DNA of 60,515 nucleotides, filler included. It is 4 parts of 4 records of this genome, joined end to end, with 100 filler letters (N's around TTAATTAATTAA, not from the genome) between each part and the next. Parts side by side here need not be neighbours in the genome. Positions count along the whole stretch, not along the records: positions 27,020 to 52,817 come from SRR2962707_4455; 3 more parts are not named here. The stretch is one strand, 5' to 3'. A program made the translations under genes and the position numbers. Of this stretch, positions 27,020-39,886 are shown one piece after another. How positions within the stretch are numbered: the stretch's first letter is position 1; the number at the start of each line of letters is the position of its first letter. The notes under the pieces were generated by a model. That model had not been told where the DNA came from, did not search any database, and saw only the letters and a program-made list of their open reading frames with translations.

Positions 27020-27651
27020 TCCAGCGCCACTCCGGTGAGCCACTCATCCGATAGCGTAGTGCGCAACACGATGCGATGGTCATCCAGCAGAGCCGCGTCC
27101 TGGAAATAAAAGCGTTGGCCGGTGAGCGGATAAAGTGCTTTGAACAGCGCCTCCTTCACCGAGAAAGTGAGAGAAACGCGGCGCGCCTGTTGTTCCTGAT
27201 CCAGATCCGACAGCGCCTCGATCTCCGCCTCCGTCAGCAATTGCTCGCGCAGTTTCAGCGCCCGTTGCGGGGCGATCCACGCTTCCGCGTCCAGGCCGAC
27301 GCCACGCCAACGCCTTCGATCGGCCACTAATGCCGCCGCCCGGCCCTGGGCGTGGGTGATGGCCCCGCATACCGCCTGTGGCCAAACCGGTGCCCGGTCC
27401 TCCCCGTAGCCGGGCAAGGCGGGTTCTCGGGTGATGGCCTCGATGGCGGCTCTGGCGCAGCATCGCCCCGCCAGATATTCGGCCAGACGCTTCTCCACCG
27501 CGCCTTGCAAGGACGCCGGCAGCGGCACTGCCTGATGTTCAAAATCTTCCAGCCGGGTCCGTTCCGGATAATAGCCGCCGCTGGCCAGACACAGGCCCTC
27601 TTCCCAGTGCTCTAGTTGAATAGGGTCCAGGCTGGACACGGATTCGGGCAT
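27020..27651 (-). CDS. 4'-phosphopantetheinyl transferase (EntD/Sfp type), 3' end cut by contig end
   Basis: AVEKRLAEYLAGR, APVWP..GAITH, GVGLDAE, FSVKEALFKA. Confidence 0.92.
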
Positions 27652-27714
27652 AACGCGGTGCTCGCTGACGGGGTCTTTATACTGGCGTCTGCCCGCGATG
27701 TCGGCAAGTCCGGC

Positions 27715-28041
27715 TCAACGCGGCGGGCGTTGCGGCTTGACGCCACTTCCCAGCGCGTTACCCATACGATTGCGCAATGCCGACTGATTGAACTGTCCGG
27801 TCCGGTTGGGCGGCAGGCGGGTGACGTCAGCGGAGTCCAGCGCCGGATTATCCCGTTTGGCCGCCTCGGGAACGGCCGCCGGCATCATCTTCCGCTGCAG
27901 GCAGTCGTAGGGCAGGGCGCGATGGCCGTTCACCTCCACTTCCACACAGGAAGGCTCATCGGCCTCGGACGCGGGCGCTTCCGCCGCGTGTAGCGCTGGC
28001 GCCATCAGTACCAGCCATCCCATGCCTATCCAGTGCTTCAT
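27715..28041 (-). CDS. Small exported conserved hypothetical protein (resembles P. aeruginosa PA0700-type proteins)
   Basis: Signal peptide ending LHA; CVEVEVNG..YDCL Cys pair; FNQSA..NRMGN..PQRP C-terminus; family link recalled from this gene cluster type. Confidence 0.7.
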   Translation of the reverse strand: MKHWIGMGWLVLMAPALHAAEAPASEADEPSCVEVEVNGHRALPYDCLQRKMMPAAVPEAAKRDNPALDSADVTRLPPNRTGQFNQSALRNRMGNALGSGVKPQRPPR

Positions 28042-28085
28042 GTCGTTTCCGTTTTTGATCGGTGAGAGTACCCGCTGCCAGGAGA

Positions 28086-28123
28086 ATGAAAACGCGGTGG
28101 TTTTTCAGTGAATTTTTCATGAC
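28086..28123 (-). promoter_or_regulatory. pho-box-like 11-bp-period direct-repeat array
   Basis: Minus strand GTCAT-gaaaaa-TTCAC-tgaaaa-ACCAC-cgcgtt-TTCAT: four half-site-like units at exact 11-bp spacing, 45-80 bp upstream of the 28041 start. Confidence 0.6.
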
Positions 28124-28233
28124 GAGCCACTCTGGCCCTCGCTATTTCCCTCCAGCCCTGTTCTGACGCTGTCCCGGCATCGGTCAAGCACCTTCGACTA
28201 GCCACCTTTTTGCTGTAGCAACGCGGTCTTTCC

Positions 28234-28281
28234 GTGAATTTTTGGTGACAACGGTTCGGTTCCGACGGACTCCCGCCATCT
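28234..28281 (+). promoter_or_regulatory. Putative PhoB + ECF-sigma promoter of the tpsB-exbBD operon
   Basis: GTGAA(28234)-N6-GTGAC(28245)-N7-CGGT(28257)-N16-CATCT(28277); identical spacing upstream of the TpsA gene. Confidence 0.6.
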
Positions 28282-28405
28282 AGAGAGTGTTAACTGGATC
28301 ACCGTATTTGCCGCGGTGTGTTTCGGGGTTGTGGTTCGTGGTTACCAGAGTTGTCCACGGTGATGCTGGCCACCGGTCCATGTATGTGTTTGCAGAGTCG
28401 AGTCA

Positions 28406-30037
28406 ATGCGTGACGCCAACAGAATGAGTGGAATGGCCTGGTTTTTGGGGGGAATGTTCGTGGCAGCCATGACTTTGACATCGTCACTTCATGCTCAACA
28501 AGACGCCACCGGCCATGAGGATCGTACAGAGGCGCCGGCGGAGGCGCCGGGAACGGTGACCATCAATGAGTACATCGTGCGTGGTAACACGGTTTTGGAA
28601 GCGCGTGACATCGAGAAGGCGGTGTACCCCTTTCTCGGGCCGGAACGAAGCCTGGAAGACATCCAGAGCGCGCAAAAAGCTCTGCAAAAAGTATATCAGG
28701 ACAAAGGGTATCAATCCGTTTATGTGGAGTTGCCGGAGCAGCGGGTCAGTGGCGGCGTGGTCTATCTCCAGGTGATCGAAGTCACCGTGGGGCGGGTGCG
28801 CGTGGTCGGCGCCGAGTACCACTCCCCGCTGAAAATCCGCGAGGAAGTGACGGCACTGCGGGAAGGCGTGGTGCCCAATTTCGAACTGGTGCAGGAAGAT
28901 TTGACCAAGGTGAACCGCACCGGCAAGCGGCAGGTAATGCCGGTGGTCAAGGAAGGCGCCATTCCCGGCACCATGGATGTGGACCTGGCCGTGGAGGATC
29001 AGACGCCTTGGAACGGCAGCCTGACCTTGAACAACGATTACAGCGCCGACACCGAAAAACTGCGTACCATCGCCACCCTCGGGCATTCCAACTTGTGGCA
29101 ACGGGGACACAGCATGTCCCTGACCCTGTTCACCGCGCCGGAGAATACCGATAACGCCGAGGTTTGGTCGTTGAGTTACGGCATGCCGCTGTCCGAGCGC
29201 TGGTCCCTGCGCTTCTCCGGTTATACCTCCGACAGTGACGTCAATACCGTGGGCGGCACCAGCGTGTTGGGGCAAGGACTATCCTACGGTGTTTCCGCCA
29301 CCTACAACATTCCGTTCGACGGCACCTGGGGGCATTCCCTCTCCCTCGGCGTTGATTTCAAGGACTTCGATGAGTCGCTGGAATTCGGCGACGCCGAGGA
29401 CACCATCCCCCTGAAATACGCGCCTTTTACCTTTGGCTATAACGGCTACTACTACACCGAAAAAAATCAGGGCTCGATCAATCTGACCCTGGTTACCGCC
29501 ACCAATGAGTTCCCCGGCAACAGCAGCGGCTGGGAAGAGTTCGATTACAAACGGTACCGGGCCAAACCGGATTTCGCCGTGATCAGGGCCGAGGCCAGCA
29601 ACGAGAGGCTGCTGGGCGAGTGGGGGCTGGCGACAAAACTAAGCGCGCAGATGGCGTCCGGCTCCCTGGTTTCCAACGAGCAGTTCGCGGTGGGGGGCGC
29701 CGGCACGGTTCGGGGTTATCTGTCCGCGGAGCAATCCGCCGACGACGGTGTGCTGGCCAGTATTGAGCTGCGCACACCTTCCATCGCCGAGTGGCTGGGG
29801 TCGCCCTGGAGTCTGGTGCGCGCCCATGTCTTCGGTGAAGGCGCCCATCTGACACTGCAAAACCCATTGCCGGAGCAGGACGATGAATTCGACCTGGCCA
29901 GTGTCGGCGTTGGGCTGCGGGCGGAGATCGGTGCCTGGTTGAGCGGACGGCTGGATCTGGGGTACCCGCTTACCGACGCGGAAAACACGGAAAAACACGA
30001 CCCCAGATTGCATTTCAGTATTACCGCCAGTTTCTGA
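28406..30037 (+). CDS. ShlB/FhaC/HecB-family two-partner secretion pore (TpsB; PdtB-like)
   Basis: Signal peptide, POTRA (YIVRGNTVL..AVYPFLG..YQDKGY), NLWQRGH, EQFAVGGAGTVRGY loop-6 motif, C-terminal ..ITASF. Confidence 0.93.
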   Translation: MRDANRMSGMAWFLGGMFVAAMTLTSSLHAQQDATGHEDRTEAPAEAPGTVTINEYIVRGNTVLEARDIEKAVYPFLGPERSLEDIQSAQKALQKVYQDKGYQSVYVELPEQRVSGGVVYLQVIEVTVGRVRVVGAEYHSPLKIREEVTALREGVVPNFELVQEDLTKVNRTGKRQVMPVVKEGAIPGTMDVDLAVEDQTPWNGSLTLNNDYSADTEKLRTIATLGHSNLWQRGHSMSLTLFTAPENTDNAEVWSLSYGMPLSERWSLRFSGYTSDSDVNTVGGTSVLGQGLSYGVSATYNIPFDGTWGHSLSLGVDFKDFDESLEFGDAEDTIPLKYAPFTFGYNGYYYTEKNQGSINLTLVTATNEFPGNSSGWEEFDYKRYRAKPDFAVIRAEASNERLLGEWGLATKLSAQMASGSLVSNEQFAVGGAGTVRGYLSAEQSADDGVLASIELRTPSIAEWLGSPWSLVRAHVFGEGAHLTLQNPLPEQDDEFDLASVGVGLRAEIGAWLSGRLDLGYPLTDAENTEKHDPRLHFSITASF

Positions 30038-30096
30038 ACAGAACCAAGGACGTCCCCAAGGGCGACCAAACAGCTTGTTTTTCGGAGTGTCTGATC

Positions 30097-31989
30097 ATGC
30101 AACAACGCCTGCTGATTTTTCTCATATCCTGCCTGGGTGCGCTGTTGCCCACCCTGGCCCATGCCTGGTGGCAAGACGATTGGAGTTACCGCAAGCAAAT
30201 CACCATCGATACCTCGCCCCAGGGCGCGGCCATCGATCAGCGGGTCGGCCGGGTGCCGCTGCTGGTACGTCTGCATACCGGCAATTTCAGTTTTCAGGAC
30301 GTCCAGGAAAACGGCTCGGATCTGCGCTTTGTGGCGGCGGACGATCAGACCGTTCTCAATCACCAGATTGAAAGCTTCGACGCGCTGTTGGGCGTGGCCT
30401 ACATCTGGGTGGATGTGCCGGCGCTGGAAGCCGGGTCCAGCCAGGATATCTGGATGTACTACGGCAATCCCGACGCGCCGGCCACCAGCAACGGTCAGGC
30501 GGTGTTCGACGCCGATTACACCCTGGTCTATCACTTTGACCAGGCGCCCGGCGCACCCGCCCGTGACGCCACCGCCTACGGCAACAATTCCAGTAACACC
30601 GTGGCGCAAAGCGTCACCGGGGTGATCGGCCAGGCCGCCGCCTTTGCCGGTGGCGAACCGCTGATGGTGGAAGCCGCGCCGTCCCTGGCGACGCCCGCCG
30701 CCGGTCAGTTTTCCTTCAGCGCCTGGGTGCGTGCCGATCAGAATGCCAATGAACAGTTGATCTATGCCCGCCGTGACGCCGGTAATTCGCTGTTGATCGG
30801 TATCAGCGCCGGCCAGCCCTTCGTTGAGGTCAATGGTCAGAGAACGGCGCCAGCGCAACCGCTGGCATCCGGTCAGTGGCAGCATCTGGCGGTGACCGCC
30901 GATGGGCAGCAAGTGGCGTTGTACGTGAATGGCCGCCAGATCAGCAGCTTGCCGGTGGCACTGCCGCCGCTGGCCACCGCCATCGCCTTGGGGGGCGATA
31001 TTCCGGGTTACGCGCCCGCCGAGCCCGTTGCGGAAGAAACCGCGAGTGAAGGGGAGGATGTCGCTACCACCACACCGGCAGCGGTGCCGTCCCGCCACTT
31101 CAATGGCGCTCTGGATGAAGTGCGGATTTCCAAGCAGGCCCGGCCGGCGTCTCTGTTGATGGCGGATTACCAGGCCCAGGGCTCCGAGTCGCGGTTGGTG
31201 GTGTTCGGCGTCGACGAAGAACAGTCCGGCTTCGGCTTCGGCGCGCTCGGCTTCTTGCTGAGCGCGGTACCTATCGACGCCTGGGTCATCATTGGGATTC
31301 TGGTGATCATGATGATCCAGACCTGGTTCGTCATGTACCGGAAGTTCCGCCATACCCGCCGGGTGGACGAGGCCAATGGCCGTTTCCGCGACGAGTTCGC
31401 CCAGGTCGGCACGCAACTGGAAAAACTCGCGGACAGCCCGGAGCTGGAACAGGAACTGGAACACTCATCGCTATGGCAGCTGTACCAAGTGGCGGTGCAT
31501 GAGCTGCGTTTGCGCCGTGCCCAGGGCGCCGATACTTCCAGCATTTCCTCGGAAACCCTGGAAGCGATCCGCGCTTCCATGGACGCCGTTCGTACCCAGC
31601 AGAATCGCGAGCTGAGTTCCCGTCTCGGTGTGCTCTCCAACGCCATCGCCGGCGGCCCCTACATCGGCCTGCTGGGTACGGTGATGGGCATCATGGTGGT
31701 GTTTCTCGGTACCGCCATGGCCGGGGACGTGAACATCAACGCGGTGGCGCCGGGTATGGCCGCCGCCCTGTTGGCCACCGCCATGGGGTTGTTCGTGGCG
31801 ATCCCGGCGCTGTTTGCCTACAACCGCATCAACGGCCGTAACCGCGATATCAGCTCCGATATGCGCGTGTTCCTGGACGAATTCGTCACCCGCCTGGCCG
31901 AGATTCATGGCGCCGGGCAGCGGCCGCCGCAGCCGGCGCAGGCCGGTCATGCCGTGCGCCATGGCATCTCTCAAAGCCCGGTGGTGTAA
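30097..31989 (+). CDS. exbB: DUF2341 + LamG/ConA-like domains fused to a MotA/TolQ/ExbB proton channel
   Basis: Signal ending AHA, WW..DWSYRK, NGSDLRFV, IWVDVP..IWMYYGNP (DUF2341); FSAWVR, WQHLAVT, LYVNG, GALDEVRIS (LamG); GPYIGLLGTVMGIM, ALLATAMGLFVAIPA (ExbB). Confidence 0.92.
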   Translation: MQQRLLIFLISCLGALLPTLAHAWWQDDWSYRKQITIDTSPQGAAIDQRVGRVPLLVRLHTGNFSFQDVQENGSDLRFVAADDQTVLNHQIESFDALLGVAYIWVDVPALEAGSSQDIWMYYGNPDAPATSNGQAVFDADYTLVYHFDQAPGAPARDATAYGNNSSNTVAQSVTGVIGQAAAFAGGEPLMVEAAPSLATPAAGQFSFSAWVRADQNANEQLIYARRDAGNSLLIGISAGQPFVEVNGQRTAPAQPLASGQWQHLAVTADGQQVALYVNGRQISSLPVALPPLATAIALGGDIPGYAPAEPVAEETASEGEDVATTTPAAVPSRHFNGALDEVRISKQARPASLLMADYQAQGSESRLVVFGVDEEQSGFGFGALGFLLSAVPIDAWVIIGILVIMMIQTWFVMYRKFRHTRRVDEANGRFRDEFAQVGTQLEKLADSPELEQELEHSSLWQLYQVAVHELRLRRAQGADTSSISSETLEAIRASMDAVRTQQNRELSSRLGVLSNAIAGGPYIGLLGTVMGIMVVFLGTAMAGDVNINAVAPGMAAALLATAMGLFVAIPALFAYNRINGRNRDISSDMRVFLDEFVTRLAEIHGAGQRPPQPAQAGHAVRHGISQSPVV

Positions 31990-32000
31990 GGAGAACAACG

Positions 32001-32426
32001 ATGGCTTCGGTAAGAACCTCGATGGACGACGATGAAATGGACGGACCGGTGGACGGCATCAATATCACGCCGCTGGTGGATGTGCTCATGGTGGTACTGG
32101 TGATGTTCATCCTCACCGCCACGGCGCAGATCGCGGGCATCAAGGTGGATCTGCCCAAGGCCAGCTCCTCGGTGTCGCTGTCCGAATCCAAGACCAAGGC
32201 TATTTCGGTGAACAACGACGGACAGGTGTTTCTCGATGCCTACCCGGTGACGCTCGCTGAACTGGAGGATCGGTTGCGTACCGAGAAAGCCATGAACCCC
32301 GGCTTTCCGGTGATCGTGCGCGGGGACGCCGCGGTGCAATACCAAAAAGTGGTGCAAGTGCTGGATGTGCTGCGGCGTCTGGATCTCAACCAGGTCGGTC
32401 TGGTGACCGGCAAGCCGCCACAGTGA
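32001..32426 (+). CDS. exbD: Biopolymer transport protein ExbD
   Basis: INITPLVDVLMVVLVMFIL with the conserved TM Asp, KVDLP, VRGD..V.Y..VV.VLD. Confidence 0.95.
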   Translation: MASVRTSMDDDEMDGPVDGINITPLVDVLMVVLVMFILTATAQIAGIKVDLPKASSSVSLSESKTKAISVNNDGQVFLDAYPVTLAELEDRLRTEKAMNPGFPVIVRGDAAVQYQKVVQVLDVLRRLDLNQVGLVTGKPPQ

Positions 32427-33214
32427 TCGATGATAACCGGATAACAGGAAAGACCATGTCGCTGCAGTCACCTCAATCACGGGATTCCGGAACGGCCTCG
32501 GGCAAGCGGCATTCCCTTTCCGCGAGCAAGACATCCCGAACGCGGCGCGGGCCGATGACCTATGTGCGCCTGGCCGTCGGCGCGGTGGTGTTGATTGTTC
32601 TGGGCTGGCTGATCTGGCAATGGGCCAACGATATGAGCGGCGTGCGCCGCCAGGTGCCGCAGGAGCCGATGCTGGTACCGCTGCCTCCGCCGCCGCCGGA
32701 GCCGGAACCAGAGGAAATGAAGGAGCCGGAACCGGAACCCGAACCGGAGGAGATCGTTGAGCCAGAGCCGGAACCCACGCCGGTGGAAGAACCGACGCCG
32801 GAAGAACCGCCTTCACCGTCGGATGATTTGTCCGAGGCCATGCAGATCGATGGTGAAGCTCAGGCCGGTACCGATGCTTTCAATATCGGCGCCGGCAGTG
32901 GTGGCGGCATGGCCGGTTCCGGCACCGGCCGGGTCGGCAACGCCACCTACGGCCAGTACCTCTCCTACGCCTTTCAGCGGGCGCTGCGCGAGGAGCCGTC
33001 GATCCGTCATCTGAGTTACCGGATACAGATCAATCTCTGGCTTAACGAGGCCGGTCAGATCACCCGGGTGCAATTACTCAAGTCCAGTGGTGACCCGGAT
33101 ACGGACGACAAAGTGATCGCCGCCGTGCGTGCCATCCCGGCGCTGGATCAAAAGCCGCCGAAGTCGATGACATTGCCGGTGAAAGTGGCTTTGCAAGGGC
33201 GGCGTCCGGGCTGA
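32423..33214 (+). CDS. TonB-like energy transducer (TM + Glu/Pro-rich linker + TonB C-terminal domain)
   Basis: Single TM, PPPPP-(EP)n linker, C-domain LWLNEAGQITRVQLLKSSGD; follows exbB-exbD; true start may be 32456 or 32556. Confidence 0.88.
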   Translation: MIDDNRITGKTMSLQSPQSRDSGTASGKRHSLSASKTSRTRRGPMTYVRLAVGAVVLIVLGWLIWQWANDMSGVRRQVPQEPMLVPLPPPPPEPEPEEMKEPEPEPEPEEIVEPEPEPTPVEEPTPEEPPSPSDDLSEAMQIDGEAQAGTDAFNIGAGSGGGMAGSGTGRVGNATYGQYLSYAFQRALREEPSIRHLSYRIQINLWLNEAGQITRVQLLKSSGDPDTDDKVIAAVRAIPALDQKPPKSMTLPVKVALQGRRPG

Positions 33215-33275
33215 CCGGGACCGAAACCAACCAGACCCAAGAATCGAGACGAACCGTTTCAGGAGCAATAAAGCA

Positions 33276-34973
33276 ATGAACATGAAGCGCAATCAGTGGC
33301 TGCTGATGCTGGCCGTGGCGGCGACCTTGAGCGGCCCGGCCGTGGCGCAGGCACCCGCCGAATCCACCGCGCCGGAGGGCAACAGCACCACCGTGCACCT
33401 GATCCGGCTGCTGGTGGAACAGGGGGTAATCACCGATGCCCAGGCCAACGCCTTGCTACAGCAGGCGCGACAGGAGGCCCAGACCGCCAGTCAGCGCCGC
33501 CCCGAACCCGAAGTGCGGGAAGGGGACGTGCGTGTGCCCTACATCCCGGAGGTGGTTCGTGACGAGATTCGCGAGGAAGTCAAACAGGAAGTGATGGCCC
33601 AGGCCAAGGCGGAAAACTGGGCGGCGCCGAATACCTTCCCGGACTGGGTATCGCGGGTGAAGCTGTTTGGTGACGTGCGGGTACGTAATGAGAGCCGGTT
33701 CTTTTCCGGGGATAACATTGATCAACTCGTGGATGGCCAAAAATATAATGAAGATGGCCCGTTTGAAACCAATCTGGGGCCTATCGCTAGTGACTTTCCC
33801 CCCCTGATGAACACCCGTGAAGACCGCACCAACCTGTTGCGGCTCCGTGCCCGTTTCGGTTTGGAAGCGGATCTGGGGGGCAACTGGAGCACCGGTGTCA
33901 GATTGGCCACGGGCAGCAGCAATGGCCCGGTTTCCACTACCCAGACGCTCGGTGGCGGGCTCAGCAAAAAAGACATTTGGCTGGATCAGGGGTGGGTGAA
34001 ATGGGCTCCGGGGATTTGGCGCTTCACCGCTGGGCGCGCGGAGAACCCCTTCGTCTCCACCGACATTCTGTTCTCCGGTGATCTGAGTTTCGATGGTGTG
34101 TCCGCCGGTTTCAAGGACCTTCGGGTCGGTGATCGCGTCGCGATGTTCGGCACCATTGGCGCCTTTCCCCTGGAATACAGCTCCGACTCATGGCCTTCCA
34201 GCAGCCCGGACAAAAGTGATAGTGAGGACAAATGGCTGTTCGGCGCGCAGGTCGGCGCCAACTGGGTGTTCAATCAGGAAGAGCGCCTGACCGCGGCCAT
34301 CGGCTACTACCACTTTGATAACATTCAAGGGCAGCGGTCTTCCGAATGTGAATTGTACAGTGACCCATACCAGTTCTGCGATACGGATTGGTCGCGGCCG
34401 ACCTTCATGCAGAAGGGGAATACCCTGTTCTGGCTGCGCGATATCCAACCCAATCCGGATGCCGACGTCACTTCAATGCCCCAATACCTGGGGTTGGCCT
34501 CGGAATTTCAGCTGTTCGATCTGAACCTGATCTGGGATACACGGGTTTTCAGTGATTACAAACTCAGGTTGGCGGGCAACATCATTTATAACGACGCCTA
34601 TTCCGAACAGGCCATGTGGCGCAATGCCGCCGGCATGATCGTCAACAACTTCGATGAAGACGGCGAATTCGAAAGTGGGCGAACCGCCTGGATGGTTCAT
34701 GCTGCTTTCGGTTCCTCCCTGAAGCTGGACCGGAGGGGGGACTGGCTGACCTTCCTGGGCTACAAACACATTGAGCCGGATGCTTTACCGGATGCCTACA
34801 ACGATTCTTCCTTCCACCTCGGCGGCACCAATGCCAAGGGCTACTACCTGGGCGCGGCTTACGCCTTGAACGAGCGGCTGTACTTCCAGGGCCGCTGGAT
34901 GAGTTCGGAAGAGGTGTATGGGCCGCCGTTGTCCATCGACATCCTGCAACTCGAACTGAATGCCCGGTTCTGA
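33276..34973 (+). CDS. Putative porin (Porin_5-type outer-membrane beta-barrel; PA0696-like)
   Basis: Signal peptide, LIRLLVEQGVIT helical N-terminus, VRVPYIPE, GDVRVR, RLRARFG, FHLGGTNAKGY, C-terminal beta-signal LELNARF. Confidence 0.85.
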   Translation: MNMKRNQWLLMLAVAATLSGPAVAQAPAESTAPEGNSTTVHLIRLLVEQGVITDAQANALLQQARQEAQTASQRRPEPEVREGDVRVPYIPEVVRDEIREEVKQEVMAQAKAENWAAPNTFPDWVSRVKLFGDVRVRNESRFFSGDNIDQLVDGQKYNEDGPFETNLGPIASDFPPLMNTREDRTNLLRLRARFGLEADLGGNWSTGVRLATGSSNGPVSTTQTLGGGLSKKDIWLDQGWVKWAPGIWRFTAGRAENPFVSTDILFSGDLSFDGVSAGFKDLRVGDRVAMFGTIGAFPLEYSSDSWPSSSPDKSDSEDKWLFGAQVGANWVFNQEERLTAAIGYYHFDNIQGQRSSECELYSDPYQFCDTDWSRPTFMQKGNTLFWLRDIQPNPDADVTSMPQYLGLASEFQLFDLNLIWDTRVFSDYKLRLAGNIIYNDAYSEQAMWRNAAGMIVNNFDEDGEFESGRTAWMVHAAFGSSLKLDRRGDWLTFLGYKHIEPDALPDAYNDSSFHLGGTNAKGYYLGAAYALNERLYFQGRWMSSEEVYGPPLSIDILQLELNARF

Positions 34974-35002
34974 TCGACCAGGCGATGAAGGGAGGTAATA
35001 CC

Positions 35003-35671
35003 ATGAAGAAGGCGGATAACGTCAAAACAAAGTGGTTTCCCGCGACGCTGACATTGCTGGTTCTGGCCTTGCCGGCCTGGGCACAGGCCCAGCAGTCCAG
35101 CCTGGAAGAACGTCTGCGTACCGAGCTGCGCAACACCACCCAGCAATTGCGGGACCTGCAATCCCGGCAAGCGGGCCTGGAGGCGGCCCGTTCCAACGCG
35201 GAAGTGCAACGTGATGCAGCCAGGGCCCAGGTGGCCAAATTGCAGGCCCGGCTCGATGCGGTGGAAGGGAATCTGGCCTCCCAGCAACGCAGCAGTCAAG
35301 CACGCATCGCCGCCAGCCAGGAACGCGCCCAGCAGATGCGCGACGCCTACGATGAGTTGTTGACCCTGGCCAAAGGCAAGGAAACGGAACGGCTGACGCT
35401 GCAGAAAGCGTTGCAACAACGTACCGCCGAATTGCAGACCTGCGTCAGCCGCAACGAGGAGATGTATATGGCGGGCAAGGAGATTCTGTCCGCTTATGAA
35501 AGCCTCGGTGCCGGCAGCCTGTTCAAGATGCGTCAGCCGCTGGCGACCTCGTCGCGGGTGGAGTTCGAGAACAGGGCCCAGGAAATGGGAGACCGGCTGT
35601 ATAACGCCCAGGTCGGCGTGGTGCGGTCGGACCAGGACGGTAACGCCGGTGCGGCGGAAAACGACGGCTGA
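35003..35671 (+). CDS. Exported coiled-coil protein (PA0697-like)
   Basis: GGAGG RBS, signal peptide ending AQA, long Q/A/L heptad helix (SLEERLRTELR..C..RN..Y..EIL..Y). Confidence 0.75.
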   Translation: MKKADNVKTKWFPATLTLLVLALPAWAQAQQSSLEERLRTELRNTTQQLRDLQSRQAGLEAARSNAEVQRDAARAQVAKLQARLDAVEGNLASQQRSSQARIAASQERAQQMRDAYDELLTLAKGKETERLTLQKALQQRTAELQTCVSRNEEMYMAGKEILSAYESLGAGSLFKMRQPLATSSRVEFENRAQEMGDRLYNAQVGVVRSDQDGNAGAAENDG

Positions 35672-35712
35672 CCATCATTGAAACGTCACAACGGCTTGTT
35701 AAGGACATCACC

Positions 35713-36204
35713 ATGAGCGAAGAAAACCACATCATCGACACTCTGCCTCTTGAGGAACTCAGTGCTCTGTTGCAGGAAGCCGGTTATCGCACCAATGAAA
35801 CCGAGCATAACGGCAGCAAGCAACTGCTCAGCGCCAGTCAGGGCATCGGCTTTGCCGTGCGCCCCGGTAATATGCTGGGGGAAGGGCTTCTGGACTTCAC
35901 CATCAGCTGCGCTTTGCGCATCCAGGGCGAGTTGCCGGAAGGGCTGATCCCGGCCTGGAATCGCGGCAAGCGTTTCTCGAGATTGAGCCGGCATGGTGAT
36001 TTTCTGGTACTGGAAATGGATGTGATCGTGGCTGGCGGTGTGCGCCGCGCCCATGTGCGCGCCAACCTGGAAATCTGGGACCGCTTGTTGCAGGAGTTCC
36101 TGCTCTATCTGCGCAATTACCGTGACGAGAACCGTAATGAGAGCCACGATAACGACGATGCCTCGGAACATGAGCAGGCGATAAGCACGGAAGCGGCGGA
36201 GTGA
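35713..36204 (+). CDS. YbjN-domain (T3SS-chaperone-like fold) protein
   Basis: LLQEAGYR..LLSASQGIGFAVR..WNRGKRFSRL..LEMDVIVAGGV..W pattern; position matches PA0698 in the cluster. Confidence 0.75.
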   Translation: MSEENHIIDTLPLEELSALLQEAGYRTNETEHNGSKQLLSASQGIGFAVRPGNMLGEGLLDFTISCALRIQGELPEGLIPAWNRGKRFSRLSRHGDFLVLEMDVIVAGGVRRAHVRANLEIWDRLLQEFLLYLRNYRDENRNESHDNDDASEHEQAISTEAAE

Positions 36205-36261
36205 CGGGTAGAGAAGTGAATTGCCGGCGTGCCGGCGATGGTTTCAACCTGGGAGTGAACA

Positions 36262-37227
36262 ATGAAAAGCGCACAGGTTTTACTCAGCGCGGTGTTGGCT
36301 GGTTTGGCGGGCGTCATTGGCACCGTTTGGGTGATGCAACCGTCCGAGGCGGTGGCCGTTTCGGAACCGGCATCGGTTTCGTCACCGGCGGCCTCATCGC
36401 CCACCTCCACAGGGCAAGGGGATGCGGTCGCGGCCCTGGGCGCGGTCAGTCTGCGCGATCAGGAAGTGGCGGACTGGCTGGCGGCGTTGTCGCCACAGGC
36501 CCGCTCGGCGATCCAGCGGGATCGTGCGCTGTTTGATGATTGGGCGCGTCAGCGTCTGGCGGAAAAGGCACTGATCCGGGAGGCCCGGCAACAGGGCTGG
36601 GAGAAGCGGGAGGAAGTGACACAGGCCATCGATCAAGCGCGCGATCAGATCCTGCTGCGCAGCTATCTGGGCGCGGTGAGCCAGGTTCCGGAGGACTTTC
36701 CCGATGACGCCACGCTGCGGCAGCTTTATGACAGCAGAAAGCAGGAACTGGCGGTACCGGAACGTTATCACCTCAGGCAGATTTTTCTTGCCGTGGACGG
36801 CACCAATGCCGACCAGGTGAAAGCCCGCGCCGGGCAATTGGTGAAGGAAGCCCGCGCTAAGAAAGGGGACTTCGCCGAACTGGCCCGCCGTCATTCCGAT
36901 GACGCGGCTTCCGCCGCCCGGGGTGGTGATATCGGCGTGCAGTCACTGGCCCAGCTTACTCCGGAGGCGCGCCCGGTGGTGACGGCGTTGAAGGACGGGG
37001 AAGTCTCCGCGCCGTTTCGCACCGCGTCGGGTTGGCATGTGCTCAAGCTGGAGAAGACCGAGGCGGCGAGAACCGCCACCTTCGATGAGGTGCGCGATCA
37101 ACTGCGCGCCACGGTCAGGGAACAGCGCCGGCGGCAAAATGCCGAGGCTTACCTGAATCGACTGGTGGGTGAGGCCTCTCTCAGCATCAATGGCGCCGCG
37201 GTGACGGCGCTGTTGGAAAACCAATAG
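36262..37227 (+). CDS. PpiC/parvulin-type peptidyl-prolyl isomerase with N-terminal anchor
   Basis: YHLRQIFL, DFAELARRHSDD..SAARGGDIG, GEVSAPFRTASGWHVLKL. Confidence 0.92.
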   Translation: MKSAQVLLSAVLAGLAGVIGTVWVMQPSEAVAVSEPASVSSPAASSPTSTGQGDAVAALGAVSLRDQEVADWLAALSPQARSAIQRDRALFDDWARQRLAEKALIREARQQGWEKREEVTQAIDQARDQILLRSYLGAVSQVPEDFPDDATLRQLYDSRKQELAVPERYHLRQIFLAVDGTNADQVKARAGQLVKEARAKKGDFAELARRHSDDAASAARGGDIGVQSLAQLTPEARPVVTALKDGEVSAPFRTASGWHVLKLEKTEAARTATFDEVRDQLRATVREQRRRQNAEAYLNRLVGEASLSINGAAVTALLENQ

Positions 37228-37253
37228 CAGCCTTGGCCGAAAAAGGAACCCGT

Positions 37254-37550
37254 ATGCCAATCCGGATGGTAATTACAACGGCGCTGGTCGCCGCTTTTCT
37301 GGCGGCCTGTACTGCGCCAGGCTCCGATTCAGCCGTCGATGGGTACCGGCGTTCGGTGATCGTGCAATGCTCACCGACCCAGGATGTGGAAGCCAATCCC
37401 TGTATCGCCAAGGCGCGCCAGGCTTGTGGCACGGACAGCGTTCGCTTGAAGAACGTGGATTCCCGACAAGCGGTGAGCGCCCCGGTGGCGCGGGGGGCTC
37501 CAGTAACGCTGGTGTATAACTACTCAGTGGTCTACTACTGCCTGGATTAG
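37254..37550 (+). CDS. Small putative lipoprotein
   Basis: Hydrophobic signal with lipobox FLAAC; four further Cys; last gene on the strand before convergent fecR. Confidence 0.65.
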   Translation: MPIRMVITTALVAAFLAACTAPGSDSAVDGYRRSVIVQCSPTQDVEANPCIAKARQACGTDSVRLKNVDSRQAVSAPVARGAPVTLVYNYSVVYYCLD

Positions 37551-37596
37551 CGGCGGGGTGCGGGGCATGGCCGCGAATCAGCAGGAGTCCGCTCTC

Positions 37597-38580
37597 TCAG
37601 CTGATAATCAAAATACCGCCCGGCAGTGACCGCACCTCCGCGCCGCGCACCTCTTTGACCAGCGCGGCGAAGTCCTCCAGTTTATCCAGGGACAGATAAG
37701 CCTGTACCGGAACCCGGCCAAGCTGATCGTTCACCAGCACGATCTGTCCCGGGCGGTAGCGATTAACTTCGTCCACCACCTGGGCCAAAGGCGTGCCGTT
37801 GAACACCAGCATGCGCTGACGCCAGGCCGTCACCCGGTCCGGGTCCACGTGTTGGACCGAGGACAGGCGAGCGGTGTTGTATACCACTTGCTGGGCAGGC
37901 TGGAGTTGAACACTCTGGTGCCGATGACGGACCGCCACCTGCCCATCCAGGCAGGTCACCCGGACGCGGTCGTCGGTGAAGCGCACATTGAAGCGAGCAC
38001 GGCGCGCTTCGATGAGGCCGTTCTGAGCGGCTACCGTGAAGGGAAGGCGATTGCCATCGGCGATGGTGATCTCGGTTTCGCCGCTGTTCAACACCAGTCC
38101 GGTGATTTGTTCCGCCTGCCTATTCACGTCGATACTGGTGCGGGTGTTGAGCTGCACGGTGGCGGCGTTGGGCAGCACTACTTCGCGTTGCTCCCCGGTG
38201 CCAGTCCAAAGATCGGCGGACTGCATGCCCATGCGCGTCCACAAATCCAGCGGCGAGCGTAACGCCAGCCAGCCCGCCGCCGAAGCCGCCACGGCGCCGC
38301 CGAGAAAGGCCCGGCGAGTGAAACGGGAAGAACGGCGCCGGGGCAGCGGATGAGCGCCGGCTTCGATGCTCTCGCTGGTAGCGGCCTGTTCCATGCCCTG
38401 CCAGACCTGGCGGCAATGGACGAATGCCCGGGCGTGCTCCGGGCTCCGCGCGCACCAGCGGCGGAAAGCTTCACCGTCGGCGGCGCTGGCGCGTCCCGAG
38501 GAGAGGTGCACCACCCATTCTCTTGCCTCCCGTGTGATCCGGTCGGAAGAGGGGGCGGGGGCGTTTCGATAATCGGTCAT
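37597..38580 (-). CDS. FecR-family anti-sigma factor (VreR-like)
   Basis: EAREWVVHL..F.RW..SPEH.RAF (DUF4880), TM after RRAFL, TGTGEQR..LNTRTS, AWRQRMLVF..PL..VVDEVNRY; ATGA overlap with the sigma gene. Confidence 0.93.
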   Translation of the reverse strand: MTDYRNAPAPSSDRITREAREWVVHLSSGRASAADGEAFRRWCARSPEHARAFVHCRQVWQGMEQAATSESIEAGAHPLPRRRSSRFTRRAFLGGAVAASAAGWLALRSPLDLWTRMGMQSADLWTGTGEQREVVLPNAATVQLNTRTSIDVNRQAEQITGLVLNSGETEITIADGNRLPFTVAAQNGLIEARRARFNVRFTDDRVRVTCLDGQVAVRHRHQSVQLQPAQQVVYNTARLSSVQHVDPDRVTAWRQRMLVFNGTPLAQVVDEVNRYRPGQIVLVNDQLGRVPVQAYLSLDKLEDFAALVKEVRGAEVRSLPGGILIIS

Positions 38581-39134
38581 GATTGCGTCGGCCTTTTTTG
38601 TCTGGGCCCGTAACGTGGGGCGTAATCCCGCTCCAGCCTTTCGCAACAATGCTGTAATCCGGCGCGCAGTTCTTTTTCCACGGTGCGCAGGGACACACCG
38701 AAACGTTCGGCGATTTCCGCGTGGGGAGTGTCCTCGATACGCGCGGCGGTAACGATGGCGCGTCGGCGGCGTGGCAGTTCCGCCAGGGCTCTGCGAAATA
38801 TCCGGATCTCCTGTTCACCCAGTGCCTCACGGGCGGGATCGGCCAGTTCATCCGCCATCTGATAGAGATCGTCCACTTCGTCCAGTGTCATCACTCTGGC
38901 GTGTTTACGGCGTTGTTCCTCCGCCACGTTCATGGCGATGCGGAAAAGGTAGGCGGCGGGATGGTGAACACGGGTGCCCTCCTGCATACGTTCAATTCGC
39001 AACCAGGTTTCCTGCAAGGCGTCCTCCGCCAGTTGGTGGGAACCCAGACGGCTGTACAGACGCTGACGGAATTCGTCATAGCGTTGCACCAGCAGATCGC
39101 GCAGCGAATGGTGCGAAGTCTCGGCGGTACTCAT
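38577..39134 (-). CDS. FecI-like ECF sigma factor (VreI-like)
   Basis: LAEDALQETWLR, AYLFRIAMN, LAELPRRRR, HAEIAERFGVSLRTVEKEL; ATGA overlaps on both sides give start 39134. Confidence 0.94.
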   Translation of the reverse strand: MSTAETSHHSLRDLLVQRYDEFRQRLYSRLGSHQLAEDALQETWLRIERMQEGTRVHHPAAYLFRIAMNVAEEQRRKHARVMTLDEVDDLYQMADELADPAREALGEQEIRIFRRALAELPRRRRAIVTAARIEDTPHAEIAERFGVSLRTVEKELRAGLQHCCERLERDYAPRYGPRQKRPTQS

Positions 39135-39886
39135 TCCCTGGATTCTCCTTGGCAGGATGGCGTGCCCGGATGGAGTAGCAGTGTGATCGGTTGCGGCATG
39201 CCGGGCGGCGGTGGCGGCAGGATCAGATCCTTGAAGCTGGCGCGGACGCTTGCTCCCCACCGTGCCTCGGCGTCGCCGTCCGGAAAGTGCACCCGGGTTA
39301 CCCGGCCTTGAGGGTCGGCCCACAATTGCACCACCAGGCGAAACTGTCCCAGTTGTTCCGGTTGATGGCGACACAGGCCGGTCAGCACCGATTGTTGCAG
39401 TGAGCGGGCATAAGCGGGCGGCACCACGGATCGAGTCTTGGATGCGACGGTTTTGGCGTCGTCGTGCTGGGCAGGTACCAGCGTCAGGGCGGAATCGGTC
39501 AACCGGCGGCTGGTCAGCCCGGTACCGTTCAGCAATATCGTCAACGCCTGATCCGGAGGGAAATGGCCCCGTACGGCGCTGGCGGTTTTGTCCTGGATGC
39601 GATCACTGGTAACCAAGATCGATATCCCCGTTTGCTCACTGAAAGTCTCCAACGACAGCGGTAAAGGCTGCGCGGGAAGATCAAAAAAGGGGGCGCCGTC
39701 ATTGGCGTAACCGGCCAGGGTCGATGCCAGCATCAATCCCGTCCCCACCAGCCGCAACAAACGGAGAAAGAGGCTCCGGTCGGCGAAAGAGGCGGTGATC
39801 GTCACGGGAAAGACGGCACTGGCATGGTCACCTGTAGACACTGCATCCGGGTCTTGAACCGGTGGATTCAATCCGTGCTCCACCAT
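39131..39886 (-). CDS. STN-domain + TonB-C-like periplasmic protein without a beta-barrel (VreA-like)
   Basis: Signal-like LLRLVGTGLMLASTLAGYA, STN FDLPAQPL..F..QTGISIL..VRG..AL..LL.GTGL, C-domain LWADPQGRVTRV..PP.GMPQP; start 39886 or 39805. Confidence 0.85.
   Translation of the reverse strand: MVEHGLNPPVQDPDAVSTGDHASAVFPVTITASFADRSLFLRLLRLVGTGLMLASTLAGYANDGAPFFDLPAQPLPLSLETFSEQTGISILVTSDRIQDKTASAVRGHFPPDQALTILLNGTGLTSRRLTDSALTLVPAQHDDAKTVASKTRSVVPPAYARSLQQSVLTGLCRHQPEQLGQFRLVVQLWADPQGRVTRVHFPDGDAEARWGASVRASFKDLILPPPPPGMPQPITLLLHPGTPSCQGESRE

What the first reader, a model, noticed from the sequence alone, without database searches (positions are those of the whole stretch)
30097..35671. 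Ton motor with a lectin-like periplasmic cap and a plug-less porin instead of a TonB-dependent receptor
Seen: ExbB carries a cleavable signal peptide plus ~350 aa of DUF2341 and LamG domains ahead of an intact channel (GPYIGLLGTV; ExbD TM Asp present). The gene after the TonB-like ORF is a 565-aa barrel with a helical N-terminal extension (LIRLLVEQGVIT..VRVPYIPE..). I see no plug/TonB-dependent-receptor pattern anywhere on the contig. An exported coiled-coil protein follows. Inference: the motor energises a non-canonical outer-membrane partner (the porin, TpsB or the TpsA tail), with VRVPY a candidate TonB-box-like strand and the coiled coil a periplasm-spanning strut.
Basis: partly seen in the sequence, partly recalled or inferred. 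Interest (0 to 1): 0.75.

Follow-up and report, generated by a model that had tools for sequence, protein, structure and literature searches.

The report
Private Ton-like motor with stalked porin
This is a marine bacterium's copy of a gene cluster already known, but never functionally explained, in Pseudomonas aeruginosa: a private proton-driven motor encoded together with a plug-less outer-membrane barrel and a giant secreted fibre.

Summary
ExbB at 30097-31989 has a signal peptide, DUF2341 and LamG domains and an intact TolQ/ExbB channel. ExbD and a TonB-like gene follow, then a 565-aa Porin_5 barrel and an exported coiled-coil protein.

The barrel models as 16 strands with no plug, behind a helical N-terminal extension.

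The cluster is not new. It matches P. aeruginosa pdtB-exbB2-exbD2-tonB4-PA0696-PA0697-PA0698-PA0699. Here it sits beside vreA/vreI/vreR-like genes and a 3906-aa TpsA. A 2020 paper still calls that motor uncharacterised. This scan had already met the module on other DNA.

Coupling of motor and barrel is strongly supported:
- Gene order is kept in 66 of 66 related loci with enough flank.
- It is kept in 11 of 12 distant loci.
- All 12 of 401 sampled genomes with a full-length Porin_5 also carry DUF2341.

New here:
- A family-wide N-terminal motif, (V/I)x(V/I)PY(I/V)P followed by a helix.
- A recombining barrel cassette.
- Homology between the VreA-like and TonB-like C-domains.

No test shows that the TonB-like arm touches the porin, TpsB or the TpsA tail.

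Verdict: a new member of a known, unexplained kind.

The parts
28103..28250 (.). Two copies of a 15-nt motif (28103-28117 and 28229-28243) upstream of tpsB. Their reverse complements read TCGTCAT-GAAA-AATTCAC and TTGTCAC-CAAA-AATTCAC, which is pho-box-like.
   Evidence: The pattern has 3 matches in the window against 0.06 expected. The third match is at 39961, upstream of tpsA. The half-site TTGTCAC also stands in a 7+4 repeat array upstream of a pstS-like gene in same-genus genome G001. The pho-box consensus itself is recalled, not retrieved.
28406..30037 (+). tpsB: the Omp85-type transporter of a two-partner secretion system (PdtB-like).
   Evidence: POTRA_2 E 4e-18 and ShlB E 2e-17. It stands first in the conserved gene order in 66 of 66 loci.
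30097..31989 (+). exbB-long (ExbB2-like): signal peptide, DUF2341 beta domain, LamG jelly roll, then a three-TM TolQ/ExbB channel subunit.
   Evidence: Domains and sequence. In the model the LamG part has pLDDT about 90. Foldseek matches ConA-like lectin folds for the head and TolQ for the membrane part.
32001..32426 (+). exbD/tolR-like stator subunit with a TM Asp (D27).
   Evidence: PF02472 E 1.5e-29. The tolR model scores 95 bits and the ExbD models 56-69 bits, all below their equivalog cut-offs.
32423..33214 (+). TonB-like arm (TonB4-like): TM segment without His, Pro/Glu-rich spacer, a conserved Gly-rich segment and a TonB/TolA-type C-domain. The real start is probably M12, at 32456.
   Evidence: Weak PDB sequence matches to TolA and TonB C-domains.
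33276..34973 (+). Porin_5 barrel (PA0696-like). Signal peptide 1-25. A periplasmic extension of about 100 aa follows (head helices, the VRVPYIPE strand motif, helix 92-112). Then a 16-strand barrel with long, very conserved loops.
   Evidence: PF16930 E 3e-198. Model. Foldseek and VIA top hits are 16-strand porins: OmpM1 Z 25.2 and OprP Z 21.3. The motifs are kept in distant members.
33568..34761 (+). Barrel cassette within the porin gene that differs between otherwise near-identical relatives.
   Evidence: Over these windows identity to L002 drops from 94-100% to 60-86%, while L001 stays at 99-100%. At the protein level the N-terminal extension and the last strands are identical.
34985..35671 (+). 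Exported coiled-coil protein (PA0697-like) with a conserved C-terminal segment.
   Evidence: Signal peptide. Only weak coiled-coil matches. Present downstream in 75 of 75 loci. The Atlas search gave only unnamed relatives.
35713..36204 (+). YbjN-family protein (PA0698-like) with no signal peptide.
   Evidence: PF10722 E 7e-10. Sequence. Present in 75 of 75 loci.
36262..37227 (+). PpiC-type peptidyl-prolyl isomerase (PA0699-like) with an N-terminal signal or anchor segment.
   Evidence: Rotamase E 4e-21. Sequence. Present in 68 of 75 loci.
37597..38649 (-). vreR-like FecR-type anti-sigma factor.
   Evidence: FecR E 8e-17 and DUF4880 E 4e-13.
38577..39374 (-). vreI-like ECF sigma factor. Coordinates are the ORF as listed. 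Sigma region 2 begins at residue 100, so the real start probably lies near 39150.
   Evidence: Sigma70_r2 and Sigma70_r4_2.
39131..39805 (-). vreA-like periplasmic protein: signal peptide, STN signalling domain, and a C-domain homologous to that of the TonB-like protein.
   Evidence: STN E 1.5e-9. HHalign of the VreA-like profile against the TonB-like profile gives probability 92.4%, E 5e-7, over 82 columns.
40166..51886 (+). tpsA: 3906-aa exoprotein (PdtA-like) with an N-terminal TPS domain and a C-terminal DUF3739 domain.
   Evidence: TPS E 1e-29 and DUF3739 E 6.5e-41. Its last 500 aa are 47-57% identical to the tail of the gene upstream of tpsB in Achromobacter and Pseudomonas loci.

Best explanation
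The region is the Alcanivorax-lineage orthologue of the P. aeruginosa PhoB/sigma-VreI (PUMA3) module pdtB-exbB2-exbD2-tonB4-PA0696-PA0697-PA0698-PA0699. Here its vreA/vreI/vreR-like regulators and a PdtA-like giant TpsA lie directly beside it.

It encodes a private proton-driven Tol/Ton-type stator. ExbB-long carries a lectin-fold periplasmic head and works with ExbD. The stator's TonB-like arm works on the module's own outer-membrane proteins, not on plugged TonB-dependent receptors.

The most likely target is the Porin_5 protein. It is a 16-strand porin-type barrel that carries a conserved periplasmic extension of about 100 aa: a head, an (V/I)x(V/I)PY(I/V)P strand, and a helix leading into the barrel.

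By analogy with HxuA/HxuB/HxuC, the giant TpsA fibre would capture something at the cell surface under phosphate starvation, and the energised barrel would take it in, or would handle the fibre.

Shown: the gene identities, the fold class of the barrel, the conserved synteny, the phyletic co-occurrence and the conserved motifs.
Inferred: every physical contact, the direction of transport, the substrate and the phosphate control in this organism.
For: Identity.
- The domain content and order match the PAO1 genes as listed in PMC2729926 and PMC7035377 (passages read).
- A locus from a record titled Pseudomonas paraeruginosa (L073) has all of these genes in the same order, at 42-79% identity.

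Dedicated coupling.
- 66 of 66 close loci with at least 5.7 kb upstream have tpsB, exbB N-part, exbB C-part, exbD and tonB-like in order before the porin.
- 75 of 75 have the coiled-coil and YbjN genes downstream, and 68 of 75 have ppiC.
- 11 of 12 distant loci, where the porin is 29-53% identical, keep exbB(N+C)-exbD next to the porin. Nine of these also keep tpsB; L112 and L113 gave no tpsB hit.
- In one 401-genome sample, 12 genomes have a full-length Porin_5 and all 12 have DUF2341. Only 2 other genomes have DUF2341.

Not a general Ton system.
- Same-genus genome G001 has 33 TonB_dep_Rec matches and 6 MotA_ExbB matches, one of which is the long form.

Barrel.
- The model has 16 strands and no plug.
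- VIA gives OmpM1 Z 25.2 and OprP Z 21.3; the best TonB-dependent transporter reaches only Z 12.2, at rank 35.

Candidate docking element.
- G83, V85-Y89 and P91 are invariant in 27 homologues.
- The hPY(I/V)P...V(R/K)(D/N)QI(R/K) motif recurs in 10 of 11 distant porins with a readable N-terminus. L105 has TYVP...VKRQLR instead.
- The region is poorly ordered in the model.

Phosphate link.
- In P. aeruginosa one PhoB- and sigma-VreI-dependent promoter transcribes phdA-pdtB-exbB2D2-tonB4-PA0696-PA0701 (PMC4971064).
- PA0696 and PA0698 are among the proteins most enriched under phosphate limitation (PMC9769906).
- This window has pho-box-like repeats upstream of tpsB and tpsA.

Precedent.
- HxuABC combines a TPS pair with a TonB-dependent importer (PMC5422565).
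Against: - No contact between any two of these proteins has been shown, here or in the papers read.
- Transposon mutants of PA0695 and PA0696 were as virulent as wild type in VreI-overproducing P. aeruginosa in zebrafish embryos (PMC2729926), so no phenotype is yet linked to these genes.
- The motor's best sequence and fold matches are TolQ/TolR rather than ExbB/ExbD. The TonB-like TM segment has no His. The coupling rules of the canonical Ton system may therefore not apply.
- The pho-box-like repeats point away from tpsB. They occur only in the three closest loci, and they are not enriched genome-wide in G001: 5 matches against 3 for the control pattern.
- One distant locus (L114) has the porin, tpsB and the coiled-coil gene but no motor genes within 10 kb. 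Its genome has a DUF2341 gene on another contig.
- The porin model is of only moderate confidence, and its long conserved loops are unresolved.
Confidence: 0.6

Rival explanations
1. The motor serves the two-partner secretion pair itself. The TonB-like arm would act on TpsB or on the periplasmic C-terminal DUF3739 tail of TpsA, to drive, hold back or release the giant fibre. Porin_5 would be a passive channel or an anchor.
For: - tpsB is the first gene of the conserved order in 66 of 66 loci.
- The TpsA tail is conserved as strongly as the other module proteins: 47-57% identity between Alcanivorax and Achromobacter or Pseudomonas.
- A periplasmic PpiC-type chaperone-like gene belongs to the operon.
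- The mature TpsB has only about 20 residues before POTRA1. It probably lacks the N-terminal plug helix of FhaC-type transporters (recalled), so it might need another gate.
Against: - TPS secretion is described as needing no energy source beyond folding (established knowledge, recalled).
- Earlier notes of this scan report the same motor-porin cassette beside cargo other than a TpsA (unchecked).
- tonB-like and the porin are always adjacent, and the porin has its own conserved periplasmic extension.
Confidence: 0.2
2. The module is a split cell-surface-signalling receptor. Porin_5 would supply the barrel. VreA would supply the STN signalling domain, docked through its TonB-type C-domain. TonB4 would supply energy. 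Together they would report a surface event to VreR and sigma-VreI.
For: - vreA/vreI/vreR-like genes abut the operon here.
- They lie within 10 kb in 6 of 12 distant loci.
- The VreA-like and TonB-like C-domains are homologous over the whole domain: HHalign probability 92.4%, E 5e-7.
- Llamas et al. proposed that the VreA C-domain contacts an unknown outer-membrane receptor (PMC2729926).
Against: - In P. aeruginosa VreA is not needed for sigma-VreI activation in vitro, nor for virulence (PMC7035377).
- Only 7 of 50 close loci with full 10-kb flanks have vre-like genes nearby. In PAO1, though, they lie further away than that.
- This reading does not explain the lectin-like head or the giant fibre.
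Confidence: 0.12
3. The three motor genes are just a spare Ton or Tol system that feeds ordinary TonB-dependent receptors, or keeps the envelope intact. They would sit beside the porin and the TPS genes only because they share phosphate regulation.
For: - Same-genus genome G001 has 33 TonB_dep_Rec matches that need energising.
- The motor parts have all the channel residues expected of a working stator.
Against: - DUF2341 and Porin_5 co-occur almost perfectly, and the synteny is strict across orders of Pseudomonadota.
- G001 has five other MotA_ExbB paralogues.
- The TonB-like TM segment has no His.
- No tolB or pal genes are in the operon.
Confidence: 0.06

Closest known systems
P. aeruginosa PAO1 PA0692-PA0699 (pdtB, exbB2, exbD2, tonB4, PA0696, PA0697, PA0698, PA0699) with pdtA (PA0690) and vreAIR (PA0674-PA0676)
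   Same: - The domain content and gene order are the same.
- The orthologous locus in a P. paraeruginosa record is 42-79% identical gene by gene (L073).
- Both have a giant TpsA, and a VreA-type STN protein with ECF sigma and anti-sigma factors.
   Different: - Here tpsA lies downstream of the operon, divergent from vreA, instead of upstream of pdtB.
- No phdA-like gene, Hxc secretion system or LapA phosphatase was seen among the window ORFs scanned.
- Regulation by phosphate is untested here.
- The function is unknown in both.
Haemophilus influenzae HxuA-HxuB-HxuC (a TPS pair plus a TonB-dependent importer)
   Same: One operon joins a secreted TpsA, its TpsB and an energised outer-membrane uptake step for a scarce nutrient (PMC5422565, passages).
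   Different: - HxuC is a plugged 22-strand receptor fed by the cell's general Ton system.
- Here the barrel has 16 strands and no plug, and the motor is private and carries a lectin-fold head.
- Uptake is not shown here.
Canonical ExbB-ExbD-TonB and TolQ-TolR-TolA motors
   Same: - MotA_ExbB and ExbD domains, a TM Asp in ExbD, and conserved TM Thr residues in ExbB.
- The arm protein has a TM segment, a Pro-rich spacer and a TonB/TolA-type C-domain.
   Different: - An exported head of about 350 aa sits on the A subunit.
- All NCBIfam equivalog scores are below their cut-offs, with TolQ/TolR scoring best.
- The arm's TM segment has no His.
- There is no TonB-dependent receptor, TolB or Pal in the operon.
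OmpM1 of Veillonella parvula (PDB 8bym): outer-membrane attachment porin with a periplasmic stalk
   Same: It is the best structural match: Foldseek E 6e-15, and VIA Z 25.2 over 304 residues. The match starts in the helix before the barrel. Both have a 16-strand barrel preceded by a helical periplasmic extension.
   Different: - 15% identity.
- OmpM1 carries an SLH peptidoglycan-binding head, while Porin_5 has its own small helical head and the PY(I/V)P motif.
- Trimer formation by Porin_5 is untested.
Myxococcus Agl-Glt gliding machinery and Vibrio TonB2 systems with TtpB/TtpC (recalled, not retrieved)
   Same: These are Tol/Ton-type motors with extra subunits that act on outer-membrane proteins other than, or besides, plugged receptors. 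The TonB-like protein here gave a weak GltJ match (E 2.7e-4, far below cut-off).
   Different: - No shared accessory families were found.
- The coiled-coil protein did not match DUF3450.
- The resemblance is of kind only.

Membership tests
PUMA3/sigma-VreI-regulated pdtB-exbB2-exbD2-tonB4-PA0696-PA0699 module | Gene content and order: TpsB, long ExbB, ExbD, TonB-like, Porin_5, exported coiled-coil protein, YbjN, PpiC. | tested here: met
   for the domains. The order is the same in 66 of 66 and 75 of 75 related loci, including a P. paraeruginosa record. The PAO1 gene list comes from PMC2729926 and PMC7035377.
PUMA3/sigma-VreI-regulated pdtB-exbB2-exbD2-tonB4-PA0696-PA0699 module | Associated VreA (STN domain plus TonB/TolA-like C-domain, no barrel), an ECF sigma factor and a FecR-type anti-sigma factor. 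| tested here: met
   STN, Sigma70_r2/r4 and FecR hits. C-domain homology to the TonB-like protein.
PUMA3/sigma-VreI-regulated pdtB-exbB2-exbD2-tonB4-PA0696-PA0699 module | Induction by phosphate starvation through PhoB together with the ECF sigma factor. | tested here: inconclusive
   There are pho-box-like repeats upstream of tpsB and tpsA. They have the opposite orientation, are not conserved beyond 3 loci and are not enriched in G001. RNA-library contigs cover the region but cannot show regulation.
Canonical Ton system | ExbB and ExbD proton-channel subunits with a TM Asp in ExbD. | tested here: met
   PF01618 and PF02472 score above their cut-offs. D27 in ExbD. T528 and T561 are invariant. 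The NCBIfam exbB and exbD equivalogs score below their cut-offs.
Canonical Ton system | TonB TM segment with the Ser/His (SxxxH) motif. The motif is recalled. | tested here: not met
   There is no His in the TM segment. There is no invariant Ser or His there in 22 homologues; W67, G73 and R76 are conserved instead.
Canonical Ton system | The partner is a TonB-dependent transporter: 22 strands, a plug and a TonB box. | tested here: not met
   No Plug or TonB_dep_Rec hit in the operon proteins or in the other window ORFs scanned. The operon's barrel models with 16 strands.
Tol-Pal system | TolQ-TolR-TolA together with TolB and Pal. | tested here: not met
   The tolQ and tolR models are the best NCBIfam hits but score below their cut-offs: 147.9 against 221, and 95.1 against 127.3. 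The neighbours are Porin_5, a coiled-coil protein, YbjN and PpiC, with no TolB or Pal.
Pfam Porin_5 (PF16930) | Full-length match to the family model, including the N-terminal extension. | tested here: met
   E 3.3e-198, residues 37-565 on model positions 2-535. The extension alone scores E 2e-33.
TonB-dependent transporters | An N-terminal plug inside a 22-strand barrel. | tested here: not met
   The model has 16 strands. Only about 440 residues follow the extension. Foldseek and VIA top hits are 16-18-strand porins; the best TonB-dependent transporter has Z 12.2 at rank 35. Model confidence is moderate.
General trimeric 16-strand porins | A 16-strand barrel. | tested here: met
General trimeric 16-strand porins | A trimer with an inward-folded constriction loop and an open diffusion channel. 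| not tested
   No oligomer was modelled. The long loops L2, L3, L5 and L7 are the most conserved parts (78-90%) but are poorly modelled.
Two-partner secretion (type Vb) | A TpsB with POTRA domains and an Omp85 barrel, and a TpsA with an N-terminal TPS domain. | tested here: met

The most novel reading that the evidence does not exclude
A receptor-independent energised gate.

- The lectin-crowned Tol-like stator drives the TonB4-like arm.
- The arm docks by strand addition onto the invariant (V/I)x(V/I)PY(I/V)P strand in the periplasmic stalk of a trimeric Porin_5 barrel.
- Pulling on that strand opens a channel that is otherwise closed by the barrel's own conserved loops.
- Phosphorus-bearing cargo caught by the giant TpsA fibre is then imported.
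- VreA is a soluble protein with the same type of C-domain fused to an STN domain. It reads the same strand and reports its state to the anti-sigma factor.

Probability: 0.15. Interest if true: 0.85.

Novelty: new member of a known kind. Interest (0 to 1): 0.4.

Why it matters
Why the module matters:
- It is widespread in Pseudomonadota.
- In P. aeruginosa it is strongly induced under phosphate starvation and during infection.
- It still has no function 17 years after it was first listed.

If its motor really works on a plug-less barrel or on a TPS system, that would widen the known uses of Ton/Tol-type motors beyond plugged receptors and envelope maintenance.

What this window adds is a set of testable handles, not a discovery:
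- a family-wide candidate docking motif;
- a clear boundary between a conserved periplasmic extension and a recombining barrel;
- a second TonB-type head, on VreA.

It also offers a non-pathogenic host, an Alcanivorax-type marine bacterium, in which the module and its regulators lie within 24 kb.

Tried and rejected
- Complex prediction. I paired TonB-like residues 130-263 with porin residues 26-130. Score 0.00; verdict 'no answer'. The alignments were not used and the partner folded poorly. This counts neither for nor against binding.
- PDB sequence searches. The Porin_5 profile gave nothing below E 0.09. The TonB-like protein gave only weak TolA and TonB hits at E 0.16-1.6.
- Megablast of the finding region against plasmids: no match.
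- Pfam scan of the porin extension alone: besides Porin_5, only chance-level DUF hits. My idea that the LIRLLVEQGV helix is a T2SSE_N/MshEN-type motif found no support.
- Coiled-coil protein: no Pfam family. The Atlas search gave only unnamed relatives.
- Representative search with the 102-aa extension. 560 clusters had E <= 0.001. Among the 150 listed, the match always lies near the N-terminus, either of proteins about 520-690 aa long or of shorter proteins that may be fragments. No other architecture was evident. I did not check the short ones.
- Pho-box pattern in G001: 5 matches against 3 for the control, so no genome-wide enrichment.
- RNA-library contigs. Runs X1-X3 come from one study and X5 from another. 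They cover 27600-40300, and single contigs bridge tonB-like to the porin and the porin to ppiC. The tool warns that such contigs prove neither transcription nor a single transcript. Both strands' genes are covered alike, so I draw no conclusion on expression.
- The window's own genome is not held, so receptor and paralogue counts come from same-genus genome G001.
Figure S5 of PMC2729926 (conserved neighbourhoods) was not seen. Faure et al. 2013 and 2014 were not read; I know them only as cited in the papers read.

Full report
**What is there.** ORF listing and Pfam/NCBIfam scans give the following map; genes are on the plus strand unless marked.

| Gene | Coordinates | Main evidence |
|---|---|---|
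| tpsB | 28406-30037 | POTRA_2, ShlB |
| exbB-long | 30097-31989 | DUF2341 72-155, Laminin_G_3 200-301, MotA_ExbB 483-589 |
| exbD | 32001-32426 | ExbD family |
| TonB-like | 32423-33214 | weak TonB C-domain |
| Porin_5 | 33276-34973 | E 3e-198 |
| exported coiled-coil protein | 34985-35671 | signal peptide, weak coiled-coil hits |
| YbjN-family protein | 35713-36204 | PF10722 |
| PpiC-type isomerase | 36262-37227 | Rotamase |
| anti-sigma factor (minus) | 37597-38649 | FecR |
| ECF sigma factor (minus) | 38577-39374 | Sigma70_r2/r4 |
| STN-domain protein (minus) | 39131-39805 | STN |
| tpsA, 3906 aa | 40166-51886 | TPS domain, C-terminal DUF3739 |

- The rest of the window holds ordinary chromosomal genes: hemC, hemD and hemY-type genes, tsaD, allantoicase, arginase and ornithine cyclodeaminase.
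- No TonB-dependent receptor was found among the 36 ORFs scanned.
- The closest public records carry Alcanivorax or Alloalcanivorax titles.

**It is a known cluster.**
- The gene list matches the P. aeruginosa PUMA3/sigma-VreI regulon (Llamas et al. 2009, PMC2729926, passages read). That regulon holds tpsA/pdtA (PA0690), tpsB/pdtB (PA0692), exbB2, exbD2, a tonB homologue (PA0695), PA0696, PA0697, PA0698 and the PpiC-type PA0699, with vreA, vreI and vreR upstream.
- The same paper noted that PUMA3 is found with TPS, ExbBD and PA0696 homologues in other bacteria. It also noted that VreA has an STN domain plus a TolA/TonB-like C-domain and no barrel.
- Quesada et al. 2016 (PMC4971064) showed that one PhoB- and sigma-VreI-dependent promoter transcribes phdA, pdtB, exbB2D2, tonB4 and PA0696-PA0701.
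- Otero-Asman et al. [quoted passage not shown] They list PA0696 as a putative porin of unknown function.
- A 2022 proteome study places PA0696 and PA0698 among the proteins most enriched under phosphate limitation, with function unknown (PMC9769906).
- A 2025 survey of MotAB relatives lists DUF2341 as an unexplained N-terminal appendage (PMC12505986).
- My searches for exbB2, tonB4, PA0693-PA0697, PdtA and DUF2341 found no functional study in the held library.
- Orthology was tested directly. A locus from a P. paraeruginosa record (L073) has every gene in the same order at 42-79% identity.
- Earlier notes of this scan describe the same module in at least 11 other genomes. I reached the identification before reading them.

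**The barrel.**
- An AlphaFold2 model built from 27 homologues has mean pLDDT 62, with strands mostly at 85-92. It shows helices 38-48, 54-73 and 92-112, then 16 strands, and no plug.
- Foldseek ranks OmpM1 of Veillonella first (E 6e-15), followed by OprB, OmpC/OmpF and AlgE.
- An independent VIA search of 48,161 chains gives OmpM1 Z 25.2, the phosphate porin OprP Z 21.3, and further 16-strand porins. The first TonB-dependent transporter has Z 12.2, at rank 35.
The protein is a porin-type barrel with a periplasmic extension.
- The long loops L2, L3, L5 and L7 are the most conserved parts of the family (78-90% column conservation). The short turns are the least conserved (35-54%). This is the reverse of what is usual for surface loops. 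It suggests that the loops fold inward or bind a conserved partner; that is inference.
- Invariant arginines alternate on strands 1-3: R135, R137, R189, R193 and R209. A basic lumen wall is likely; that is also inference.

**The extension.**
- In 27 homologues of 56-81% identity, T39, L42-R44, G83, V85-Y89, P91, V94-D96, I98 and R99 are invariant.
- In 10 of 11 distant Porin_5 proteins with a readable start (29-53% identical overall), both elements recur. One is a helix of the type L(I/V)xxL(V/I)xxG. The other is a strand-helix motif, (V/I)x(V/I)PY(I/V)P..V(R/K)(D/N)QI(R/K)(D/E)E. L105 has a variant, and the start of L112 could not be read.
- The extension alone finds 560 representative clusters. 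In the 150 listed it always lies near an N-terminus.
- The VRVPY strand is thus a family-defining, poorly ordered element. That is what a docking strand should look like, but it is not evidence of docking.

**The motor.**
- The ExbB-long model (mean pLDDT 67.6) has a beta domain at 30-145 and a LamG jelly roll at 170-350 (pLDDT about 90). A disordered linker follows, then the TolQ/ExbB helices.
- Foldseek matches the head to ConA-like lectin folds: the carbohydrate-binding domain 4 of the arabinanase AbnA, the PAPP-A LamG module, pentraxin PTX3 and toxin receptor-binding domains. It matches the membrane part to TolQ (TM-score by target 0.64-0.74, 26-28% identity).
- 'Lectin-like' is therefore correct as a fold. 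Sugar binding is untested.
- NCBIfam scores favour tolQ (147.9 bits) over exbB (91.9), and tolR (95.1) over the ExbD models (56-69). All are below their cut-offs.
- The TonB-like protein keeps a Pro-rich spacer and a well conserved C-domain. Its TM segment has no His and carries a conserved WxWAND motif instead.

**Coupling.** The close set is the 80 loci kept by the search for related loci (which reported 513 relatives among 600 candidates).

| Test | Result |
|---|---|
| tpsB, exbB N-part, exbB C-part, exbD and tonB-like in order before the porin | 66 of 66 loci with enough upstream flank |
| Coiled-coil and YbjN genes after the porin | 75 of 75 |
| ppiC after the porin | 68 of 75 |
| exbB(N+C)-exbD beside the porin in distant loci | 11 of 12; 9 of these also keep tpsB |
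| Genomes with any Porin_5 match in a 401-genome sample | 19, of which 12 are full length |
| Genomes with DUF2341 in the same sample | 14, including all 12 with a full-length Porin_5 |

- The exception among the distant loci is L114. Its genome has a DUF2341 gene on another contig.
- Kin are not independent, so these counts overstate the number of separate events. The pattern nevertheless spans several orders.
- Same-genus genome G001 has 33 TonB_dep_Rec matches and 6 MotA_ExbB matches, so general Ton and Tol systems exist elsewhere.

**Two further observations.**

First, the porin gene is mosaic.
- L002 is 94-100% identical to the window across the operon, except at 33568-34761, where identity falls to 60-86%. 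L001 is 99-100% identical there.
- The breakpoints fall just after the extension (about residue 125) and before the last strands (about residue 500).
- Two deeply diverged barrel cassettes therefore move between close relatives, while the periplasmic extension stays with the motor. This fits a surface-exposed barrel under diversifying selection and an extension matched to its partners; that is inference.

Second, the VreA-like C-domain is homologous to the TonB-like C-domain over the whole domain.
- HHalign gives probability 92.4%, E 5e-7, over 82 columns. Pairwise BLASTP gives E 0.001.
- The locus therefore encodes two heads of one type, one on the motor arm and one fused to an STN signalling domain.

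**Regulation and expression.**
- A 15-nt motif occurs three times in the window against 0.06 expected: twice upstream of tpsB and once upstream of tpsA.
- Read on the other strand it has the 7+4+7 form of a pho box (consensus recalled). Its half-site TTGVCAC-type repeat matches one upstream of a pstS-like gene in G001.
- It is kept only in the three closest loci and is not enriched in G001.
- Contigs from RNA libraries of two studies cover the region and bridge gene junctions, but they cannot prove transcription.

**How it most likely works.**
- Shown: the gene identities, the fold classes, the synteny, the co-occurrence and the motifs.
- Inferred: a private Tol/Ton-type stator uses its TonB-like arm on the module's own outer-membrane parts. 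The most likely target is the Porin_5 extension. The whole serves the giant TpsA fibre under phosphate starvation, by analogy with HxuABC.
- Rivals: the arm acts on TpsB or on the TpsA tail; the module is a split signalling receptor with VreA; or the motor is merely a spare.

**Verdict.**
The non-canonical partner is well supported; the contact and the roles of VRVPY and the coiled coil are open.
- The finding is a new member of a known, functionally unexplained kind that this scan has met before. Interest is moderate.

Noticed in passing
window 33568-34761: The barrel part of the porin gene is a recombination cassette. One close relative (L002) is 94-100% identical everywhere else but only 60-86% identical here. 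Another (L001) is 99-100% identical here and less similar elsewhere.
   Followed up: yes
window 27715-28041 (-): A small ORF of 108 aa with a signal-peptide-like start and no Pfam family. It is divergent from tpsB, and a pho-box-like site lies 62-83 bp upstream of its ATG, in its own orientation.
   Followed up: partly
window 28406-28560: The mature TpsB has only about 20 residues between the signal peptide and POTRA1. It probably lacks the N-terminal plug helix and linker known from FhaC; that comparison is recalled.
   Followed up: no
window 51928-52737 (+): A LuxR-family regulator with an autoinducer-binding domain lies 40 bp after the tpsA stop. No synthase gene was seen among the ORFs scanned.
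   Followed up: no
L118 14901-16421 (G001 contig C22): In the same-genus genome a 506-aa ORF with a PstS-type PBP_like_2 match (E 1.5e-17) follows tpsA and the luxR-like gene. The window has DUF294 and RNase_T genes at that place instead.
   Followed up: partly
window 16754-18108 (-): A 236-aa ORF holds only the EFG_C and BipA_C domains of a BipA/TypA GTPase, so it is a truncated copy or fragment. Its start overlaps by one base the stop of a chloramphenicol-acetyltransferase-family ORF.
   Followed up: no
window 38577-39374 and 39131-40009 (-): The longest ORFs of the sigma factor and the VreA-like gene overlap by about 240 bp, and both run far upstream of their domains. The real starts are probably near 39150 and 39805. 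The stretch 39806-40165 would then be a shared divergent promoter region with tpsA.
   Followed up: partly
window 32800-32960 (TonB-like residues about 130-175): A strongly conserved segment, MQIDG(D/E)AQAGxDAFNIGAGxGGGMxGSGxG, lies between the Pro-rich spacer and the C-domain. It has no counterpart that I know of in TonB or TolA.
   Followed up: no
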